Part shown: piece after piece, positions 16,364-22,477 of the stretch
How positions within the stretch are numbered: the stretch's first letter is position 1
Layout of the letters: every line of letters starts with the position of its first letter
NCBI GenBank assembly: GCA_030651905.1
Contig: JAUSBS010000100.1
Location: 19,892-83,891, forward strand
Source: Coriobacteriia bacterium
GTDB taxonomy: Bacteria; Actinomycetota; Coriobacteriia; Anaerosomatales; PALSA-660
DNA length: 64,000 nucleotides
Reading direction: 5' to 3'
The notes under the pieces: generated by a model
The model's database searches: none
The model's input: the letters and a program-made list of their open reading frames with translations, nothing else
Told to the model about the DNA's origin: nothing
Made by a program: the position numbers and the translations under genes

Positions 16364-17062
16364 TCACTTCGCCGACTCGCCACTTCCCTCGAGGCGCCGG
16401 ACGTCCACCAGACGCGCTTGGACGATGAGGCGCTCGCGGGCGCTGTAGGGGGGATGACACGCCGTGAGCGTGAGCATCGGGTCCTCGGTGTGCGCCACGA
16501 CCTCCACGTGGTCGGGTGTCACCGCGAAGATGCGGACGACCTGGTAGCGGTAGCGGCGATACGGCGAGTAGAGGTCGATGGTATCACCCGATGTGAGCAC
16601 GTCCAGACTCCCGAAGGGGTGCCCGTACGTCGTGCGGTGGCCCGAGATGCCGACGTTGCCCGTCGCGCCCGGCAGATCGGTCGTGGTGATCCAGCCGGGG
16701 CCACGGCGAAGGTCGCCTGCCGCCGTTCCCTTCACGACGACCGTGTCGAGGCCCATCTTCTCGATCACGAGCCGCCCGAACGCTCCGCCGCGCGCGAGGG
16801 AACCCCAGTATCCCCCGTCGGCGGCGTCCCATCCGGAGAAGTCCATGAGGACGGGTTGCGCCGGCGATACCACCGAATTGCCGAGGACGGAAGCGACCAG
16901 CTGCGTGCGCAGGGCCGACTGGTCGAGGTAGTTCACCGCATCGGTGACCCCGACATAGGCCACAAGCCCGAGGGCCGCACCGAGCAGCACGTTGGCCAGC
17001 GCGTGAAGTGAGAGCCGGAGAGGGCCGACCGGCACACTCGCCGCAAGCACCGATCCACTCAT
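16364..17062 (-). CDS. class E sortase
   Basis: N-terminal TM segment, ISGHRTTYGHPF, catalytic TLTAC, and C-terminal RLIVQARL, typical of actinobacterial SrtE. GGGAGGGAGG RBS precedes ATG 17062. Confidence 0.85.
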   Translation of the reverse strand: MSGSVLAASVPVGPLRLSLHALANVLLGAALGLVAYVGVTDAVNYLDQSALRTQLVASVLGNSVVSPAQPVLMDFSGWDAADGGYWGSLARGGAFGRLVIEKMGLDTVVVKGTAAGDLRRGPGWITTTDLPGATGNVGISGHRTTYGHPFGSLDVLTSGDTIDLYSPYRRYRYQVVRIFAVTPDHVEVVAHTEDPMLTLTACHPPYSARERLIVQARLVDVRRLEGSGESAK

Positions 17063-17184
17063 GGCGGTCCGCCTCCCTCCCGCTACCGGCACCACCTCCG
17101 CGCGCTCCCCCACTATAAGTAATCTCACCTGACCTGCCGATATCACTCCTGTACGGCACGTTTGACATCAGGGACGCGAAAGCG

Positions 17185-17290
17185 GCTTCTCCCCGAAAAG
17201 GCACACCCCGCGAAAGCGGGGGTCGCAAAGTCACGGGTCTACCGGAGGGCGAAACCCCTCCCATGACGGCCGGACTGCCGAAGGTGAACG
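17185..17290 (+). promoter_or_regulatory. c-di-GMP-I (GEMM-I)-like riboswitch aptamer, copy 1
   Basis: GAAAAGGCACA-CCCCGC-GAAA-GCGGGG-GUCGCAAAGUCACGGGUCUACCGGAGGG-CGAAA-CCCCUCCCAUGACGGCCGGACUGCCGAAGG aligns block by block with the remembered Vc2 aptamer. That aptamer reads CAGGGCAAA-CCAUUC-GAAA-GAGUGG-GACGCAAAGCCUCCGGCC...GGUAGCGGGGUUACCGAUGG. It sits in the 5' leader of the HExxH gene. Confidence 0.65.
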
Positions 17291-17311
17291 ACCTGACGTC
17301 CGCATGGTGCG

Positions 17312-17367
17312 GCCGGGCCCTCCCGAAGGCGACGCGACCTTCGAGGATGAGCCCGGCTTCTCGTCTC
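17312..17367 (+). terminator. riboswitch expression platform: long GC hairpin plus UUCUCGUCU (putative attenuator), copy 1
   Basis: GCCGGGCCCUCCCGAAGG-CGACGCGA-CCUUCGAGGAUGAGCCCGGC followed by UUCUCGUCUCC. The 5' arm repeats the aptamer box CUCCCCGAAAAGGC as CCUCCCGAAGGC. Confidence 0.45.
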
Positions 17368-17394
17368 CCCGCACGCACAGGGAGTACGCGCACC

Positions 17395-18006
17395 ATGCAC
17401 CGTTGCTCATCATCCACACGACTCATCGCGGCGCTGACGATCGTCCTGATCGTCGCGCTCGTGGTTCCGGCGATCGTGAGCGCGGCACCCGTGCCGTTCC
17501 GGGTCGGTGCGACGAACGCCGGCTCCTCCGCTGCGCTCGCCTCTGTGGCCGAGGAGCACGCCCTCGACGCCAAGACCGCAGCGGTGGCCGCCGAGGCCGC
17601 TGCGTTGGCGGAGCAGCAGCGGATCGCAGCTGCCGCTCTGGTGGAGAAGGAGCGACTCGCGGCGGCGGCATACACGGCGGCCCGGACGAGCGCGAAGAAG
17701 CCGGCCGCCAAGACCGCGAAGATCTCAGGCGGCAGCGAGCTCACGCAGGCACAGTCGATCCTCGCCTCGCTCAGGTCCCGCTACCCCCGCTACCTGTCCG
17801 GAGCCACCGTCTCGATCGGCTCCGCAAAGGGCTACCAAGCGATCTCGTACTACACGTCGGGCCGCATCGTCATCAGCCCGACGCATCGAGCCAGTCTTGA
17901 GCGGATCCTCGCCCACGAGATCTGGCACATCATCGACTGGCGGGACAACGGCCGCATCGATTGGGGCGAGCGCGTACCGCCGAGCAACGCCGCGAGCTAC
18001 CGCTAG
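17395..18006 (+). CDS. secreted protein with minimal HExxH (zinc metallopeptidase-like) C-terminal domain, paralog 1
   Basis: Signal peptide MHRCSSSTRLIAALTIVLIVALVVPAIVSA, an Ala-rich linker, and the conserved C-terminal domain ...YPRYLSGATVSIGSAKGYQAISYYTSGRIVISPTHRASLERILAHEIWHIIDWRDNGRIDWGE. AGGGAG RBS. Confidence 0.75.
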   Translation: MHRCSSSTRLIAALTIVLIVALVVPAIVSAAPVPFRVGATNAGSSAALASVAEEHALDAKTAAVAAEAAALAEQQRIAAAALVEKERLAAAAYTAARTSAKKPAAKTAKISGGSELTQAQSILASLRSRYPRYLSGATVSIGSAKGYQAISYYTSGRIVISPTHRASLERILAHEIWHIIDWRDNGRIDWGERVPPSNAASYR

Positions 18007-18030
18007 CAGCTCGCGCTGAAGGATGCGAAC

Positions 18031-18051
18031 ACCGCCGGGTCATCCGGCGGT
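18031..18051 (+). terminator. hairpin after HExxH paralog 1
   Basis: ACCGCCGG-GTCAT-CCGGCGGT lies 25 nt after the stop. No U tract. Confidence 0.3.
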
Positions 18052-18228
18052 CTGGTCGTGCAGTGGCGCCGACCGGCCGGGCACCCGACGGCCCCTTTCG
18101 GCGTGTGCTGCTGCCGTTCATCGTAATCATGGACCTTCTATAAGCGAGAACCGTCCGACCCTATAAGGGTTCGCCACGTCGGTGCCGATAGTGTGTGATG
18201 TAAGGCACATTGACAGCGAGATGAATAC

Positions 18229-18335
18229 GGGTGCTCCCCGAAAAAGGCACAGCCCGCGAAAGCGGGCGTCGCAAAGTCACGGGTCTACCGGAGGCGGAAT
18301 CCAAGCCTCCCACGACAGCCGGACCGCCGAGGTAG
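18229..18335 (+). promoter_or_regulatory. c-di-GMP-I (GEMM-I)-like riboswitch aptamer, copy 2
   Basis: GAAAAAGGCACA-GCCCGC-GAAA-GCGGGC-GUCGCAAAGUCACGGGUCUACCGGAGGC...GCCUCCCACGACAGCCGGACCGCCGAGG. The P1b stem differs from copy 1 by compensatory changes (CCCCGC/GCGGGG versus GCCCGC/GCGGGC). Confidence 0.65.
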
Positions 18336-18357
18336 AGAACCAGGACTCGAATAAGTC

Positions 18358-18417
18358 GAGACCCGGGTGCTCCGAAGGCAAGATGCGACGGAGCGCTCCC
18401 GGGTCTCGTCTCGTGTC
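18358..18417 (+). terminator. riboswitch expression platform hairpin plus GUCUCGUGU, copy 2
   Basis: GAGACCCGGGUGCUCCG...CGGAGCGCUCCCGGGUCUC followed by GUCUCGUGUC. The 5' arm (CGGGUGCUCCGAAGGCA) duplicates the aptamer 5' segment (CGGGUGCUCCCCGAAAAAGGCA). Confidence 0.45.
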
Positions 18418-18437
18418 AGGTTCTCAAGGGGCGCACC

Positions 18438-19025
18438 ATGAAGTACACGATCAAGTCGCTGGCCACCACGATGATCGCCGCTCTCCTCCTGGCGATCCTG
18501 GTCCTGCCGCTCGCCGGCTCCGGAACCCCGGTCGCCAGCGGTGCATCGATCGCGGCCTCCAAGAGCGCCCCGTTCGCCGCCTACACCAGGCGGCGCCGTG
18601 TGAAGCGCGTCATCAAGCGCCGCAGGGTCCGCCACCATCATCACCGCGTCGTGCGTCGCCGCAAGGTCGCACGGCGCCCGGTCGCCACGGCGCCCGTCGC
18701 CCCGCTGGCCATCGTCGCAGCCCCGGTCGCCCCCACGGCTCCGGTCGTCGACGAGGCCGCTCTCGCGCAGACGATCCTCGACGGGCTCAAGGCGCAGTAT
18801 CCGCGCTACCTCAGCAACGCGACGGTCAGCATGGGAGATGCCATGGGATACCAGGCCATCTCCTACTACACCAGCGGGCGGATCGTCGTCAGCCCGACCC
18901 ACACGGCCACTCTCTCCAGGATCATGAACCACGAGATCTGGCACATCATCGACTGGCAGGACGATGGCGCGCTTGACTGGGGCGAGGCCATCCCGCCCAC
19001 GAACATGAGCACGTACGCGAACTAG
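18438..19025 (+). CDS. secreted protein with minimal HExxH domain, paralog 2 (carries an Arg/His-rich tract)
   Basis: Signal peptide MKYTIKSLATTMIAALLLAILVLPLAG. Polybasic tract RRRRVKRVIKRRRVRHHHHRVVRRRKVARR. The C-terminal domain is mostly identical by eye to paralog 1, including NHEIWHIIDWQDDG. Confidence 0.8.
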   Translation: MKYTIKSLATTMIAALLLAILVLPLAGSGTPVASGASIAASKSAPFAAYTRRRRVKRVIKRRRVRHHHHRVVRRRKVARRPVATAPVAPLAIVAAPVAPTAPVVDEAALAQTILDGLKAQYPRYLSNATVSMGDAMGYQAISYYTSGRIVVSPTHTATLSRIMNHEIWHIIDWQDDGALDWGEAIPPTNMSTYAN

Positions 19026-19213: not shown

Positions 19214-22198
19214 TTATGCCACGCGGTGCGAGACGCGTCGAAGTACCACGCCTGCAAGCGCGAGCACGCCCGCCGCGAGCAGCAGCAGGTAGAGGTCGAT
19301 GCCGGTGAACGGCAGGAACGGCAGCGTCACGACCACGCGCGCCTTGTCCACGTTGTCGACCGGAGTCTTGTCGATCGTCGGATCATCCGGGAAGTCGATC
19401 TTGACGGTGTTGTCGATCTTCGTGCCGTCCGCCACGTCGCTCTTGACCCTCATCTTGTAGACGATGGTCCCGGAGGCATCGGGGAGGAGCGGGCCTGTGA
19501 GGTTCCACGTGATCTTGCCGCCCGACACGGTGCCCCCAGCCGCGTCGACAACGTCGACGTAGCGCTCGTCGTAGTCGTCCACGATCTGGAAGTCGGTGGC
19601 CGAGGCCTTGCCGTCGTTGCCGTAGACCAGCGTGTAGGTGAGGATCTCGTCCGGGTCCGCGATCGTTGGCGTGACCGACTTGTGGATCCAGAGATCCGGC
19701 TCGTCGAAACCGATGAACGGCTCCTGGTTGCCAAAGTCGAGGTCCTGGGTGGAAGAACCGCCCGTGACGGTGACGGGCTCAGGGCTGACCGTGCGAACCC
19801 AGCCCGTCTGCATCTCCTCAGTGAGGAAGTACAGCCCCGGCTTGAGGTTCCCGAACGAGTAGGCACCGCCGGGTCCGGTCGTGGTAGAGGCAACGAACAC
19901 ATAGTCCGCTGGGACCGACGGGCTCTCTTCGCCGCTGGCAGCCAGCATCGGGAGGGACTGGAACAGCTCTCTGATATCCCTGTGCCTGTAGAGATTGATG
20001 GTCCAGCCGGCGAGCAGGGGTTCGCCGATCGCCTTGATGGTGTCGCCGTTGAGGTCGTTGAACTTGACGCCGTTGAGATCGCTGAACTGGGTGTTGCCGA
20101 CCACAACGCGCTTGGTCTGCCCGCCGACCAGCGTGAACTCGACCGGGACCTCGCTCGTCGACTGGTACCAGCCCGTCTCGGAGGCCTCGGTGAGCTTGTA
20201 CGTACCGGGCATCAGGTTCTCGAACGACAGGTTGCCGGACGAGTCGGTCAACGCAGTGAACGTCGCCGTATCGGCCCCCGCGGGCCCCGTCAGTGTGAAT
20301 TCGCGTACGAGACCCGGCTCAGGGGCGTCAAAGATGCCATCACCGTTGAAGTCGTTGAACTTCACGACCTGAACGACCGCGAGCTCCTCGTTGGTGAAGT
20401 CCAGGTTGTACAGGTGGGTGGTGTGGCCGATGGTGGCGGCGTCAGCGGCGCTGTCATAGATCGGCGCGGACTTCTGCACCCAGCCGGTCTCCATGGCCTC
20501 CTCGACGTAGTAGTCGCCGGGCTCGAGGTCGTAGAAGGCCCAGTGGCCGGGAAGGCCGTCGACGGATCTGGTGACCGTCGTGGCGACCGAACCGATGGTG
20601 CCTGTCTTGTAGAGCTTGATGGTCCAGCCGTTGAGGCCGGCCCCGCCCTCGAAGTTGAACTTGTGGCCGGAGATCTCGTTGTCGACGACCTCGTCGTTTT
20701 TGAAGTCCAGGTCGGTCAGGTGGGTGGTGTGGCCGATGGTGGCGGCGTCAGCGGCGCTGTCATAGATCGGCGCGGACTTCTGCACCCAGCCGGTCTCCAT
20801 CTCTTCCTGCACGTAGTACTTGCCGGGCTCGAGGTCGTAGAAGGCCCAGTGGCCGGGAAGGCCGTCGACGGACTTGGTGATCGTCGAGGCGACCGAGGCT
20901 GCGGTGCCTTCCTTGTAGAGCTTGATGGTCCAGTTGTTGAGGCCGGCTCCGCCATCGAAGTTGAACTTGTGGCCGGAGATCTCGTTGGACACCTGTGCGT
21001 TCCCGAAGACTCCGCAATCCTTCGTCTCGGAATGCCCGAGCTGGAATCCACTTGTGATGCCGCTCTTCGTACAGATCCAGGTCTCACCGGCGGGAGCTGC
21101 GCCCTCCGCCAACTTGTAGTAGCCGTCGTCGACGACCCGCTTCGAGGGGTCGGTATCGTCGTGGCTGAAGAACACGAGACCGTTCGAATCGGTGGTCTTG
21201 GTGATCGTCTTCACTACCGTTGTGTACGTGCTGTCTGTGTACTGCGTCAGAACGAACGGCCAGCCACTGATCCAGGGCTCGCCGGTCTCCTGCACGCCGT
21301 CTGCGTCCAGGTCGTGGAACTTCTTGGCTTGGATGTGCGAGCAGAAGTCGGGCTCATCGGCGAAGCGGACGTCGATATGACTGAGGCCGGCCCACTGGCT
21401 GCCGTCACACTCCGTGCCGGATGGCGGGCTGTGCATGAGCGTGTCGTGGTAGCTCCCGTCCGTGCCGAACGCGCTGTATACGTTGGCGTTCGGACCGCCC
21501 TTGACCACCATGTAGGTGACGGGCGCAGTGGACGTCCACGCGAACACCGGTCCGTAGGTGCCGGTGCTCACAGTGATGGTGATGCTCACCGACGTGCCAT
21601 GGTGCAGGAACGAGTATGTCTGGGTGCCGGAGGAGATGGCCCCGGCGCCGGGCACGCCATCCGGAATCCTGAAGTCGCCCGCAACCAGACTCGGGTTGCC
21701 GTCCACTATCGTCGGCTGTACGCCGTCGCCCGAAGGACTGTTCAGCGCGGTCGTGCTCGACACGACGACGCCCATATCCAGCGCGGCAGCCGTGACGGTG
21801 ACGGGTGCGGGCTCCTCCGAGGGTGCCGGATCGGGCGCCGGTGCCGGGTCTGCCGGCGGCGCAGGGTCGGGCGCCGGTGCCGGGTCTGCCGGCGGCGCGG
21901 GATCAGGCGCGGGTGCCGGATCGGGTGCCGGTGCCGGGTCTGCCGGCGGCGCAGGGTCGGGCGCCGGTGCCGGATCAGGCGCAGGGTCTGGCGCTGGTGC
22001 CGGATCGGGCGCGGGTGCGGCCTGCTCCGGAGCAGGCGCATCGATCGCGTACGCGACCGCGACGACGCCAGGACCGGTCATGGCGAACACGAGCACCATG
22101 GCCGTGAGCGCCGCCAACCACTTGCGGATCCATCGAACGTGCGGCCTCGAGAGCGCCATCGTCCTCATCCCCCTGTCCGCGACGCGCCAGCGTCGCAT
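19214..22198 (-). CDS. LPXTG-anchored cell-surface protein with Pro-rich N-terminal tract, SdrD-B/Cna-B-like repeats and DUF11-like domain
   Basis: Signal peptide ...WLAALTAMVLVFAMTGPGVVAVAYA, then (PAPD)n. About 5-6 prealbumin-like repeats (GHKFNF...GW.I.LY...PG.Y...E....GW). A DUF11-like segment (LWIHKSV...ILTYTLVYGNDG). The C-terminus is LPFTG plus a hydrophobic stretch plus RRVSHRVA. Start is uncertain among ATG 22198, 22168 and 22159. Confidence 0.85.
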   Translation of the reverse strand: MRRWRVADRGMRTMALSRPHVRWIRKWLAALTAMVLVFAMTGPGVVAVAYAIDAPAPEQAAPAPDPAPAPDPAPDPAPAPDPAPPADPAPAPDPAPAPDPAPPADPAPAPDPAPPADPAPAPDPAPSEEPAPVTVTAAALDMGVVVSSTTALNSPSGDGVQPTIVDGNPSLVAGDFRIPDGVPGAGAISSGTQTYSFLHHGTSVSITITVSTGTYGPVFAWTSTAPVTYMVVKGGPNANVYSAFGTDGSYHDTLMHSPPSGTECDGSQWAGLSHIDVRFADEPDFCSHIQAKKFHDLDADGVQETGEPWISGWPFVLTQYTDSTYTTVVKTITKTTDSNGLVFFSHDDTDPSKRVVDDGYYKLAEGAAPAGETWICTKSGITSGFQLGHSETKDCGVFGNAQVSNEISGHKFNFDGGAGLNNWTIKLYKEGTAASVASTITKSVDGLPGHWAFYDLEPGKYYVQEEMETGWVQKSAPIYDSAADAATIGHTTHLTDLDFKNDEVVDNEISGHKFNFEGGAGLNGWTIKLYKTGTIGSVATTVTRSVDGLPGHWAFYDLEPGDYYVEEAMETGWVQKSAPIYDSAADAATIGHTTHLYNLDFTNEELAVVQVVKFNDFNGDGIFDAPEPGLVREFTLTGPAGADTATFTALTDSSGNLSFENLMPGTYKLTEASETGWYQSTSEVPVEFTLVGGQTKRVVVGNTQFSDLNGVKFNDLNGDTIKAIGEPLLAGWTINLYRHRDIRELFQSLPMLAASGEESPSVPADYVFVASTTTGPGGAYSFGNLKPGLYFLTEEMQTGWVRTVSPEPVTVTGGSSTQDLDFGNQEPFIGFDEPDLWIHKSVTPTIADPDEILTYTLVYGNDGKASATDFQIVDDYDERYVDVVDAAGGTVSGGKITWNLTGPLLPDASGTIVYKMRVKSDVADGTKIDNTVKIDFPDDPTIDKTPVDNVDKARVVVTLPFLPFTGIDLYLLLLAAGVLALAGVVLRRVSHRVA
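20396..20995 (-). repeat. two tandem 306-bp (102-codon) near-identical intragenic repeats
   Basis: The block beginning GAAGTCCAGGT...GGTGGGTGGTGTGGCCGATGGTGGCGGCGTCAGCGGCGCTGTCATAGATCGGCGCGGACTTCTGCACCCAGCCGGTCTCCAT recurs at an offset of exactly 306 nt (20396 versus 20702). Long runs are identical. Confidence 0.8.
21822..22018 (-). repeat. low-complexity GC-rich repeat encoding (DPAPAPDPAPPA)n
   Basis: Reiterated GGTGCCGGGTCTGCCGGCGGCGCAGGGTCGGGCGCC-type units of about 36 nt. They are in frame within the surface protein. Confidence 0.7.
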
Positions 22199-22477
22199 CT
22201 ACTCGCCGCGGCCGGCTGCTACAGGTATGAGGACGCAGAAGACCGGCCGCCTCGGGCCGGTCTCACGATTGACTCCCCGCCGGTCAAACTCGTGACCGTC
22301 ATGCACACCGGCGGATCGCAGTCTCCCGAATTCACAGTATGTAGTGCACCCCGAAAGCCGTGGTACACCTTGCCCCTGCTGGGCGTTATACCCCCTCGCG
22401 AATGCGCCGGTAAGCCCCCGTTGGGCGAATTCATACCAGAGGATGAGTGGTTTCTTAGAGACGCTCTCGTGCGGGTG

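What the first reader, a model, noticed from the sequence alone, without database searches (positions are those of the whole stretch)
18138..18437. Second aptamer copy with compensatory stem changes, plus a conserved block upstream of both aptamers
Copy 2 keeps all single-stranded signature blocks. It changes the tetraloop stem from CCCCGC/GCGGGG to GCCCGC/GCGGGC, a compensatory change that argues for selection on RNA structure. Both leaders also share an upstream block that is not part of the canonical aptamer. That block is CTATAAG (17113; 18138 and 18161), TGCCGATA (17135; 18183) and GGCAC-N-TTGACA (17155-17167; 18204-18215). Its role is unexplained. It could be a promoter, a protein site or an extra RNA element.
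Basis: seen in the sequence. Interest (0 to 1): 0.55.

Follow-up and report, generated by a model that had tools for sequence, protein, structure and literature searches.

The report
Sigma-28-type promoter plus riboswitch leader strand
The conserved block upstream of both c-di-GMP riboswitches is two things: a flagellar-type (sigma-28/WhiG-like) promoter, and the first ~40 transcribed bases, part of which pairs with the region just upstream of the ribosome-binding site.

Summary
Both aptamers pass Rfam thresholds, and the C-G to G-C swap in the tetraloop stem sits in a helix that covaries across 32 related leaders.

The upstream block is conserved in about 45 orthologous leaders from metagenomes, so it is not a leftover of the local duplication. 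It has two parts:
- **Blocks 1 and 2** (CTATAAG, then 16 nt, then GCCGATA) fit the sigma-28/FliA/WhiG promoter consensus T(A/C)AA-N16-GCCGATAA. 41 of 46 leaders carry it at a fixed distance, against about 0.007 expected per window.
- **Block 3** starts 5-6 nt after the -10 element, so it is the predicted 5' end of the RNA.
  - Its 3' half (strand X) pairs with the segment just after the platform hairpin (X'). Covariation supports this, and seven held-out leaders reproduce it.
  - The leader segment next to the aptamer (Y) is a covarying anti-Shine-Dalgarno strand.
  - The invariant TTGA(A/C)A and the GGCAC motif remain unexplained.

The start site, the sigma factor and the direction of ligand control are inferred, not shown. 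The aptamers look like canonical c-di-GMP-I, not true "GGC" variants. The two genes encode small secreted zincin-like proteins beside a sortase and a riboswitch-controlled adhesin.

The parts
18138..18144 (+). Extra upstream CTATAAG. It has no -10 partner at N15-17 and its role is unexplained.
   Evidence: The ortholog L121 has CCATAAGC at the same place.
18161..18167 (+). Copy 2 -35 region. CTATAAG contains TAAG at 18164-18167, matching T(A/C)A(A/G) of a sigma-28/WhiG-type promoter.
   Evidence: In 41 of 46 family leaders this position reads T, A/C, A, A/G, G, with a spacer of 16 nt (33 leaders) or 15 nt (8 leaders). Consensus from PMC12871210.
18184..18191 (+). Copy 2 -10 element GCCGATAG (consensus GCCGATAA).
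   Evidence: GCCGATA is kept in 37-41 of 41 leaders. Enrichment is 29 of 35 against 0.007 per 110 nt.
18197..18211 (+). Predicted 5' end of the copy 2 transcript. It also reads ATG-TAA.
   Evidence: The (G/A/C)TGTA motif sits at a fixed 5-6 nt spacing after the -10. MFE hairpin at positions 1-15. Start-stop reading. The transcription start site is inferred, not mapped.
18210..18226 (+). TTGACA (the nearly invariant TTGA.A, unexplained) followed by strand X (GCGAGAT 18216-18222), the 5' strand of the long-range helix.
   Evidence: T15 is invariant and T14, G16, A17 and A19 are at least 90% conserved. X-X' tests.
18229..18239 (+). Strand Y (GGGUGCUCCCC), the anti-Shine-Dalgarno strand. Its CCCC run overlaps the 5' strand of aptamer helix P1.
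   Evidence: The Y-SD cognate test gives p=0.0002, and the copy 2 duplex is -19.6 kcal/mol. Present in the MFE.
18237..18332 (+). c-di-GMP-I type aptamer, copy 2.
   Evidence: RF03167 at 62.5 bits. Helices covary.
18335..18341 (+). Strand Z (GAGAACC), which pairs with Z' (GGTTCTC).
   Evidence: The Z-Z' cognate test gives p=0.0002. Present in the MFE.
18360..18406 (+). Expression-platform hairpin (arms B and C). It has no U tract.
   Evidence: B-C cognate test p=0.0002. RNAalifold pairs at columns 173-180/213-220. No + strand terminator call.
18403..18419 (+). Strand X' (GTCTCGT 18403-18409, with a second TCTCG register to 18413), the partner of X.
18419..18437 (+). Z' (18419-18425), then the Shine-Dalgarno sequence and spacer AAGGGGCGCACC up to the ATG at 18438.
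18438..19025 (+). Regulated gene 2. It encodes a 195-aa secreted protein with a C-terminal HEIWH zincin-like domain.
17113..17119 (+). Copy 1 -35 region CTATAAG, with TAAG at 17116-17119.
17136..17143 (+). Copy 1 -10 element GCCGATAT.
17149..17190 (+). Copy 1 transcribed leader. It contains CTGTACGGCACGTTTGACA, X-like GGGACG (17171-17176), a local CGCGAAAGCG hairpin, and CUUCUCCCC next to P1.
   Evidence: The X-X' signal is weaker here (-9.6 kcal/mol against a row mean of -8.2).
17191..17283 (+). c-di-GMP-I type aptamer, copy 1.
   Evidence: RF03167 at 68.2 bits.
17302..17398 (+). Copy 1 expression platform:
- GCAUGGUGCG (17302-17311) pairs with CGCACCAUGC over the start codon.
- The hairpin runs 17312-17357.
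- CGUCUCCC (17362-17369) pairs with the Shine-Dalgarno sequence GGGAG (17380-17384).
- The ATG is at 17395.
   Evidence: MFE with z-score -3.99.
17395..18006 (+). Regulated gene 1, a 203-aa paralog of gene 2.
   Evidence: P0024.

Best explanation
Each of the two units is an independent transcription unit.

**Promoter (inferred).** An RNA polymerase carrying a sigma-28-family factor (FliA/WhiG type) is predicted to recognise TAAG-N16-GCCGATA. It is predicted to start 5-7 nt after the -10 element, at or next to the conserved (G/A/C)TGTA.

**Leader segments.** The ~40-nt leader ahead of the aptamer is part of the expression platform and has three segments:
- W, the 5'-terminal segment: GTGTA, GGCAC in some leaders, and the invariant UUGA(A/C)A. 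Its role is not established. In copy 2 it forms a small 5' hairpin.
- X, which pairs with X', the segment directly after the platform hairpin.
- Y, an anti-Shine-Dalgarno strand whose C-run is also the 5' strand of aptamer helix P1.

**Ground-state fold.** A further helix, Z-Z', joins the segment after P1 to the segment just before the Shine-Dalgarno sequence (SD). The predicted ground state is Y-SD plus Z-Z' plus the hairpin, which buries the ribosome-binding site.

**Switch (inferred).**
- X-X' cannot be nested with Y-SD or Z-Z', so I read it as the alternative conformer in which the ribosome-binding site is open.
- X' is transcribed before Z' and the SD, so X-X' can form first.
- c-di-GMP binding strengthens P1, which draws on the same C-run as the SD core, so ligand binding should shift the balance between the two folds.
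- I lean towards c-di-GMP opening the site (ON, about 0.5) rather than closing it (OFF, about 0.3).

**Shown:** conservation and spacing of the promoter motif, covariation of X-X', Y-SD, Z-Z' and the hairpin, and the predicted folds.

**Inferred:** the start site, the sigma factor, mutual exclusivity in vivo, the ligand and its sign.
For: **Promoter.**
- The motif matches the published consensus T(A/C)AA-N16-GCCGATAA.
- It is present in 41 of 46 non-identical family leaders, with a 15-16 nt spacer and GCCGATA nearly invariant, while the spacer sequence itself varies.
- By a stricter pattern it is found in 29 of 35 leaders, against a background of 0.007 per 110 nt.
- Most of the 16 remaining motif matches in these loci turned out to be further family leaders.
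- The same motif precedes 12 of 64 other high-GC GEMM-I aptamers, against 0.011 expected.
- (G/A/C)TGTA keeps a fixed 5-6 nt distance from the -10.

**X-X'.**
- Cognate duplexes average -12.2 kcal/mol against -9.0 for non-cognate pairs (p=0.0002).
- On the alignment, 71.8% of cells pair against 64.7% when shuffled (0 of 500), and double-change cells number 29 against 12.6 (0 of 500). Slid registers reach only 19-44%.
- In seven leaders not used for the alignment, the best partner of X anywhere downstream is the same site. L149 has a wholly different but complementary sequence there.

**Other helices.** Y-SD, Z-Z' and the B-C hairpin each give p=0.0002. Five control pairings show no signal.

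**Folds.**
- The MFE contains Y-SD in 25 of 32 leaders, Z-Z' in 26 and the hairpin in 31, and leaves X unpaired.
- The copy 2 fold has a z-score of -5.5.
- Forcing the full P1 raises the unpaired probability of the SD core from 0.11 to 0.32, at a cost of +8.4 kcal/mol.
Against: - No start-site data exist for this organism.
- No sigma-28 or flagellar gene was found among the 20 window ORFs scanned. The rest of the genome could not be searched.
- The window's -35 reads TAAG, one mismatch from T(A/C)AA.
- In nearest-neighbour models the X-X' conformer lies 12-13 kcal/mol above the ground state. Forcing P1 alone does not bring X-X' into the nested MFE. The coupling between ligand and X-X' is therefore not explained by thermodynamics.
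- X-X' might coexist with Z-Z' as a pseudoknot rather than replace it.
- The permutation p-values ignore relatedness among the 32 leaders.
- In copy 1 the X-X' signal is weak and the platform has diverged.
- The closest biological precedent is the C. difficile zmpI class-I riboswitch, which is an OFF switch. That is opposite to my structural lean.
Confidence: 0.65

Rival explanations
1. Block 3 acts at the DNA level. TTGACA would be the -35 box of a second, housekeeping-sigma promoter, or the block would be an operator for a repressor sitting just downstream of the start site.
For: TTGA.A is the most conserved leader element outside the aptamer: T15 is invariant and T14, G16, A17 and A19 are at least 90% conserved. 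It shows no significant pairing partner (best p about 0.011 before correcting for about 15 tests). Many orthologs also carry CRP-like TGTGA-N6-TCACA sites upstream, so protein regulators do act on these promoters.
Against: No -10-like hexamer lies 16-18 nt downstream of TTGACA on the + strand. In the orthologs the corresponding position reads TCCCGA or similar. The 3' half of the leader covaries with a distant RNA partner, which a DNA site would not require. No palindrome is apparent.
Confidence: 0.15
2. The shared upstream blocks are residual similarity from a recent tandem duplication of a riboswitch-gene cassette and have no function of their own.
For: The two downstream proteins are paralogs. 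The two leaders are 78% identical over the aligned columns.
Against: The same blocks, in the same order and spacing, occur in about 45 leaders from many metagenomes. These include single-copy loci such as L022, and downstream proteins that are only 40-60% identical. Sequence between the blocks is not conserved.
Confidence: 0.03
3. In copy 1 the block serves the divergent sortase gene. On the minus strand, TCGGCA-17 nt-TATAGT (17140..17112) would be a sigma-70-type promoter. CTATAAG would then be a -10 box read backwards.
For: The scan reports this 9-of-12 match. The sortase start at 17062 lies 50 nt beyond it. L022 has the same divergent sortase arrangement.
Against: Copy 2 has no divergent gene, yet keeps the block. 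In most orthologs the -35 is CTCAAG or CTAAAG, whose reverse complement is not -10-like. In copy 2 and L022 the reverse hexamers are TATAGG and TATAGC. At best this is an additional, overlapping use in copy 1.
Confidence: 0.1
4. The platform hairpin is an intrinsic terminator and the 5' leader is its antiterminator, so control is transcriptional.
For: The hairpin is GC-rich and strongly conserved by covariation. In the window it is followed by the pyrimidine-rich UCUCGUCUC. When X-X' is forced, the model extends it into the hairpin's 3' arm.
Against: No terminator-like site is called on the + strand. In most orthologs the hairpin is followed by GAUGUGCGC, with no U tract. Pairing of the leader with the hairpin's 3' arm shows no covariation (Y-Y'' p=0.92). 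A strand that pairs with the 3' arm and with sequence beyond it would arrive too late to prevent hairpin formation.
Confidence: 0.1

Closest known systems
Sigma-28 (FliA/SigD/WhiG) dependent promoters, including the WhiG regulons of Streptomyces and Rubrobacter
   Same: It is a two-block motif, T(A/C)AA then about 16 nt then GCCGATAA, with the CGA core invariant. In Rubrobacter such promoters drive surface-appendage and c-di-GMP turnover genes.
   Different: In the window the -35 reads TAAG. The cognate sigma factor was not identified for this Coriobacteriia MAG. I found no description of such a promoter feeding directly into a c-di-GMP riboswitch: the two WhiG papers I read contain no mention of riboswitches.
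c-di-GMP-I (GEMM-I) riboswitch, Rfam RF01051, and its variant RF03167 'c-di-GMP-I-GGC'
   Same: The aptamers have full-length matches above the gathering score, a GAAA tetraloop, and covarying helices.
   Different: - Model position 37 of RF03167 has consensus G. It is A in both window copies, and the CGCAAAG block containing it is invariant in all 32 aligned leaders.
- Most orthologous aptamers score best as canonical RF01051. The 'GGC' label here reflects overall similarity, not the variant's diagnostic base.
- That this base is the A47 equivalent is my own recollection of the Vc2 structure. The defining paper could not be read.
- The expression platform, with a strand upstream of the aptamer, is not part of either Rfam model.
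Clostridioides difficile zmpI (PPEP-1) class-I riboswitch with the CD2831/CD3246 class-II riboswitches
   Same: A class-I c-di-GMP riboswitch precedes a small secreted HExxH protein. Next to it are a sortase-anchored surface protein behind a class-II riboswitch, and a sortase.
   Different: The proteins are not detectably homologous to PPEP-1. There is no Pfam or PDB sequence match, and the fold resembles minigluzincins only weakly (E=0.045). No protease activity or substrate is known. C. difficile class-I switches such as Cd1 act by transcription termination and zmpI is negatively regulated by c-di-GMP, whereas here the platform looks translational and its sign is unknown.
Translational riboswitch platforms in which a P1 strand doubles as the anti-Shine-Dalgarno strand
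   Same: The anti-SD strand Y overlaps the 5' strand of P1. SD pairing covaries and dominates the predicted ground state.
   Different: Two further covarying long-range helices, X-X' and Z-Z', cross each other in sequence order. One of them uses a strand 5' of the aptamer. Whether they alternate or form a pseudoknot is unresolved.

Membership tests
c-di-GMP-I riboswitch aptamer (GEMM-I clan CL00126) | Covariance-model score at or above the curated gathering score over the full model. | tested here: met
   68.2 and 62.5 bits against 59 for RF03167. Two lower-scoring matches from the same clan also passed gathering and were suppressed.
c-di-GMP-I riboswitch aptamer (GEMM-I clan CL00126) | Helices supported by compensatory changes, and a GNRA tetraloop. 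| tested here: met
   16 of 34 predicted pairs have double changes. The GAAA loop is present in both copies.
c-di-GMP-I riboswitch aptamer (GEMM-I clan CL00126) | Binds c-di-GMP and changes gene expression. | not testable with these tools
   Needs in-line probing, ITC or reporter assays.
c-di-GMP-I-GGC variant (RF03167) | The variant base (consensus G at model position 37, in CGCGAAG) that distinguishes it from the parent class. | tested here: not met
   Both copies read CGCAAAG, and this block is invariant across the 32-leader alignment. 16 of 20 orthologous aptamers score best as RF01051.
Sigma-28/FliA/WhiG-dependent promoter | -10 element GCCGATAA with an invariant CGA. | tested here: met
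   GCCGATAT and GCCGATAG in the window. GCCGATA in 37-41 of 41 leaders.
Sigma-28/FliA/WhiG-dependent promoter | -35 element T(A/C)AA placed about 16 nt upstream. | tested here: inconclusive
   The spacing of 16 nt is met. The window reads TAAG, one mismatch. 30 of 41 relatives read T(A/C)AA exactly.
Sigma-28/FliA/WhiG-dependent promoter | Transcription start a few nucleotides downstream of the -10. | not testable with these tools
   There is only indirect support: the conserved (G/A/C)TGTA sits 5-6 nt after the -10.
Sigma-28/FliA/WhiG-dependent promoter | A cognate sigma-28-family factor encoded in the genome. | not tested
   None was found among the 20 window ORFs scanned.
Sigma-70-type promoter using TTGACA as -35 | A -10 hexamer 16-18 nt downstream of the -35. 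| tested here: not met
   No + strand promoter-like site in 17000-18500.
Intrinsic terminator (for the platform hairpin) | A GC-rich stem followed by a U tract. | tested here: not met
   No + strand terminator-like site. The orthologs have GAUGUGCGC after the stem.
Translational (SD-sequestering) riboswitch platform | An anti-SD strand complementary to the ribosome-binding site, maintained by covariation. | tested here: met
   Y-SD cognate -14.1 against non-cognate -11.4 kcal/mol, p=0.0002. Present in the MFE of 25 of 32 leaders.
Zincin metallopeptidase (for the regulated proteins) | An HExxH motif on a helix, packed against a small beta sheet. | tested here: inconclusive
   The HEIWH motif is invariant. 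The model has pLDDT above 90 for the domain. The best folds are minigluzincins, but at E=0.045. There is no Pfam or PDB sequence match.

The most novel reading that the evidence does not exclude
The same second messenger may control these genes at two levels. In Actinomycetota, WhiG-type sigma-28 factors are themselves switched off by c-di-GMP through the anti-sigma RsiG. If the sigma factor used here is of that kind, c-di-GMP would gate transcription initiation through RsiG-WhiG. It would also gate translation through the riboswitch on the same mRNA.

Depending on the sign of the riboswitch, this gives one of two circuits:
- a coherent double lock, or
- an incoherent circuit that yields a pulse at intermediate c-di-GMP.

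Either circuit would control small secreted zincins that act on a neighbouring riboswitch-controlled adhesin. The leader may in addition begin with a leaderless start-stop mini-ORF.
Probability: 0.2. Interest if true: 0.65.

Novelty: new variant of a known kind. Interest (0 to 1): 0.4.

Why it matters
The anonymous 'conserved block' becomes two testable elements.
- **Testable regulatory link.** A flagellar/WhiG-type promoter feeding a c-di-GMP riboswitch would tie the motility or development sigma-factor circuit to riboswitch control of a sortase/adhesin/zincin module. That module is conserved in uncultured Actinomycetota and echoes the C. difficile PPEP-1 system.
- **Riboswitch annotation.** Sequence upstream of an aptamer can belong to the expression platform, yet aptamer-centred annotation such as Rfam ignores that region.
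- **Rfam labels.** A hit to an Rfam 'variant' family can come from overall similarity without the diagnostic base.

None of this overturns current understanding, so the interest is moderate.

Tried and rejected
**Pairings tested and rejected.**
- Leader Y with the hairpin's 3' arm: suggested by whole-leader duplexes, but no covariation (p=0.92).
- Y with Z as an extended P1: p=0.91.
- Hairpin 5' arm with the SD: p=0.30.
- The 5'-terminal 23 nt (GTGTA, GGCAC, TTGACA) against every other region: best p=0.011-0.014 with the linker and hairpin arm, not significant after about 15 tests.
- Whole-leader against whole-downstream duplexes: too noisy in GC-rich RNA.

**Structure prediction and energy modelling.**
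- RNAalifold on the MAFFT alignment recovered only the aptamer and the hairpin.
- Forcing X-X', forcing two or four P1 pairs, and a pseudoknot-like energy sum all failed to make the X-X' state competitive. The ligand-to-X-X' link therefore remains an inference.

**Other readings rejected.**
- TTGACA as a sigma-70 -35 box, and the hairpin as a terminator.

**Searches that gave nothing useful.**
- No Pfam family and no PDB sequence relative for the regulated proteins.
- The paper that defined the GGC variant is not in the library. Other papers mention the name only in lists.
- The supplement of the Rubrobacter WhiG paper holds no promoter sequences from which to calibrate the -10 to start-site distance.
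- No information on sigma-28 in Coriobacteriia.
- No sigma factor among 20 window ORFs.
Full report
**1. What is in the window**

Rfam finds two aptamers of the c-di-GMP-I clan on the + strand, at 17191-17283 (68.2 bits) and 18237-18332 (62.5 bits). It also finds a class-II type aptamer at 22246-22335 on the - strand.

Each + strand aptamer precedes one of two paralogous ORFs, 17395-18006 and 18438-19025. Both ORFs have a signal-peptide-like N-terminus and a conserved C-terminal domain ending in HEIWHIIDW. A sortase gene (16364-17062, - strand, PF04203) diverges from copy 1. A 994-aa SdrD_B/SpaA/DUF11 surface protein (19214-22198, - strand) follows the class-II aptamer. An exact protein match identifies the contig as an NCBI 'MAG: Coriobacteriia bacterium'.

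**2. The observation**

CTATAAG is over-represented, with 4 copies against 0.41 expected. GCCGATA alone is not over-represented.

The stem change CCCCGC/GCGGGG to GCCCGC/GCGGGC is exact. In a 32-leader alignment the same helix shows many double changes. The inference of selection on structure therefore holds.

**3. Orthologous leaders**

I collected related leaders in two ways:
- A pattern scan of species-representative genomes for the aptamer core gave 120 loci.
- A scan of metagenome contigs for relatives of the downstream protein gave 80 loci.

About 50 of the protein-family loci carry the aptamer upstream of the gene. All three blocks recur in them, in the same order and spacing, while the sequence between the blocks varies. 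This includes single-copy loci such as L022, which shares the sortase synteny. It also includes other tandem pairs, L122 and L149. The block is therefore functional and is not duplication residue.

**4. Blocks 1 and 2 are a sigma-28-type promoter**

Across 46 non-identical leaders, 41 have T-(A/C)-A-(A/G)-G, then 16 nt (33 leaders) or 15 nt (8 leaders), then GCCGATA. The C, C, G and A of the -10 are invariant.

This matches the consensus used for FliA/SigD/WhiG promoters. That consensus is -35 TAAA and -10 GCCGATAA, refined to T(A/C)AA-N16-GCCGATAA for actinobacterial WhiG (PMC8325347, PMC12871210).

- **Enrichment in the family.** A strict pattern hits 29 of 35 leaders at 43-56 nt from the aptamer core. 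The background is 0.007 per 110 nt in the same loci. Most of the remaining matches in those loci were further family leaders that my aptamer pattern had missed.
- **Window.** Only the two leaders match with a GCCGATA core.
- **Wider pattern.** The motif also precedes 12 of 64 other high-GC aptamers of this type, against 0.011 expected.
- **Gaps.** No sigma-28 gene or flagellar gene lies among the 20 window ORFs I scanned. The rest of the genome was out of reach. The start site is not mapped.

**5. Block 3 is the start of the RNA**

A conserved (G/A/C)TGTA follows the -10 after 5-6 nt in most leaders. A spacing this fixed ties it to the start site.

TTGACA is not a housekeeping -35 box, because nothing -10-like follows it. 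GGCAC is present only in a subset. In copy 2 it closes a small 5'-terminal hairpin with the GAUGU at the 5' end. TTGA.A is almost invariant, and I could not find a partner for it.

**6. A long-range helix**

Just 3' of TTGACA lies a segment, X (typically GCGAACAUCGG; in copy 2, GCGAGAU at 18216-18222). It is complementary to X', the segment directly after the platform hairpin (typically CCGAUGUGCGC; in copy 2, GUCUCGU at 18403-18409). Three tests support the helix:

- **Partner swap.** Each leader's X pairs better with its own X' than with X' from other leaders: -12.2 against -9.0 kcal/mol, p=0.0002 over 5000 permutations.
- **Column counts on the alignment.** 71.8% of cells are paired against 64.7% shuffled. 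Double-change cells number 29 against 12.6. The covariation score is 0.212 against 0.124, each with 0 of 500 shuffles reaching the observed value. Slid registers give 19-44%.
- **Held-out leaders.** In seven leaders not used to define the helix, the best partner of X anywhere between the aptamer and the start codon is this same site. In L149 both strands have different sequences that remain complementary (GCGAGAGCG with CGCGCCUCGC).

These p-values ignore relatedness among the leaders. However, five control pairings tested the same way show nothing.

**7. The rest of the platform**

The same partner-swap test supports three more helices, each at p=0.0002:
- Y-SD, between the leader segment abutting the aptamer and the Shine-Dalgarno region. 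In copy 2 this is GGGUGCUCCCC with GGGGCGCACC, at -19.6 kcal/mol.
- Z-Z'. In copy 2 this is GAGAACC with GGUUCUC.
- The B-C platform hairpin.

The unconstrained MFE contains Y-SD in 25 of 32 leaders, Z-Z' in 26 and the hairpin in 31. It leaves X single-stranded. The copy 2 fold has a z-score of -5.5.

Copy 1 has diverged. Its Shine-Dalgarno sequence and its start codon are each buried by local partners, and its X-X' signal is weak.

The hairpin lacks a U tract. I therefore read the control as translational.

**8. How it may switch**

The order of the strands along the RNA is X, Y, aptamer, Z, hairpin, X', Z', SD. X-X' therefore crosses both Y-SD and Z-Z' and cannot be nested with them. I take it to be the alternative conformer with an open ribosome-binding site.

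Two points fit this reading:
- X' is made before Z' and the SD, so X-X' can form first during transcription.
- The C-run of Y is shared between P1 and the SD core. Forcing the full P1 raises the unpaired probability of the SD core from 0.11 to 0.32, at a cost of 8.4 kcal/mol.

Energy models place any X-X' state 12-13 kcal/mol above the ground state. Thermodynamics alone does not explain its use, so a kinetic role or a pseudoknot with Z-Z' remains possible.

The sign of control is open. Structure suggests c-di-GMP opens the site. [quoted passage not shown]

**9. Family assignment of the aptamers**

The best Rfam model for the window copies is the 'GGC' variant. However, the variant's consensus G at model position 37 is A in both copies, and the CGCAAAG block containing it is invariant in all 32 aligned leaders. 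Of 20 orthologous aptamers, 16 score best as canonical c-di-GMP-I.

I therefore file them as c-di-GMP-I-type aptamers, not as members of the variant. The mapping of that base to the ligand-contacting adenine is from my own memory of the Vc2 structure, because the defining paper was not available.

**10. The regulated proteins**

There is no Pfam or PDB sequence match. An AlphaFold model built on 44 homologs is confident for the C-terminal ~90 residues. Its best structural matches are minimal zincins (selecase, abylysin, jannalysin) and other HExxH enzymes, at weak E-values (0.045, probability 0.98).

The module of class-I riboswitch with zincin-like protein, class-II riboswitch with surface protein, and sortase recurs in relatives.

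**11. Verdict**

The finding is real and is now largely explained. It is a sigma-28/WhiG-type promoter plus a transcribed leader that contributes two strands to a translational expression platform.

It is a new variant of known kinds and of moderate interest. The invariant UUGA(A/C)A, the possible start-stop mini-ORF at the 5' end, and the role and timing of X-X' are the open points.

Noticed in passing
window 22246-22335 (-) and 19214-22198 (-); L133 4929-5016, L140 4884-4970, L174 3714-3801: A class-II c-di-GMP aptamer (RF03169 'GAG' variant, 55.2 bits) leads a 994-aa SdrD_B/SpaA/DUF11 surface protein next to the two class-I units and a sortase. Relatives keep a class-II aptamer on the opposite strand. 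The layout parallels C. difficile zmpI and CD2831.
   Followed up: partly
window 18438-19025 and 17395-18006: The regulated proteins belong to an unannotated family of 44 homologs, all 'hypothetical'. The invariant HEIWHIIDW domain is modelled at pLDDT above 90 and most resembles minigluzincins (selecase, abylysin) at weak E-values.
   Followed up: partly
L126, L131, L132, L133, L137, L140, L141, L142 and others, 5-60 nt upstream of the -35 (for example L132 about 1885-1935): One or two CRP/FNR-like sites (TGTGA-N6-TCACA, for example GTGACGCACATCACA and TGTGACGGATTGCACA) sit just upstream of the sigma-28-type -35 in many orthologs. They are absent from both window copies.
   Followed up: no
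window 18198-18203 (ATG TAA); 17149-17154 (CTG TAC) and orthologs: The predicted 5' end reads NTG followed at once by TAA or TAG in 17 of 36 leaders. In 7 more, a 4-5 codon frame ends at the TGA of the invariant TTGA. This may be a leaderless start-stop mini-ORF, or it may be chance.
   Followed up: partly
window 18138-18144: The additional CTATAAG upstream of copy 2 has no GCCGA partner at 15-17 nt. The close ortholog L121 has CCATAAGC at the same position. Its function is unknown.
   Followed up: partly
window 17140..17112 (-): A sigma-70-like match, TCGGCA-17-TATAGT, lies on the minus strand and overlaps the copy 1 promoter blocks. It points at the divergent sortase gene.
   Followed up: partly
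window 18031-18051: A hairpin ACCGCCGG-GTCAT-CCGGCGGT lies 25 nt after the stop codon of ORF 1 and has no clear T tract. It may mark the end of the first transcription unit.
   Followed up: no
L122 (315 and 1351), L149 (1131 and 2099); proteins P0007/P0031 and P0021/P0026 each share a contig: Tandem pairs of riboswitch-gene units, each with its own promoter block, recur in several unrelated metagenome contigs. The duplication is therefore old or recurrent.
   Followed up: partly
L005, L007, L058, L066, L077, L083, L103, L118 and others (upstream of the aptamer match): CTAAAG-N16-(G)CCGATA(A) promoters also precede GEMM-I aptamers of other genes. The titles of these loci include Solirubrobacteraceae, Actinomycetes, Acidimicrobiales, Fimbriimonadia and Nitrospirales. 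In these the -10 lies only 16-35 nt from the aptamer, with no long leader.
   Followed up: partly
window 17302-17311 with 17389-17398: In copy 1, GCAUGGUGCG just after the aptamer is perfectly complementary to CGCACCAUGC, which spans the start codon. This is a different sequestering helix from the one in copy 2.
   Followed up: no
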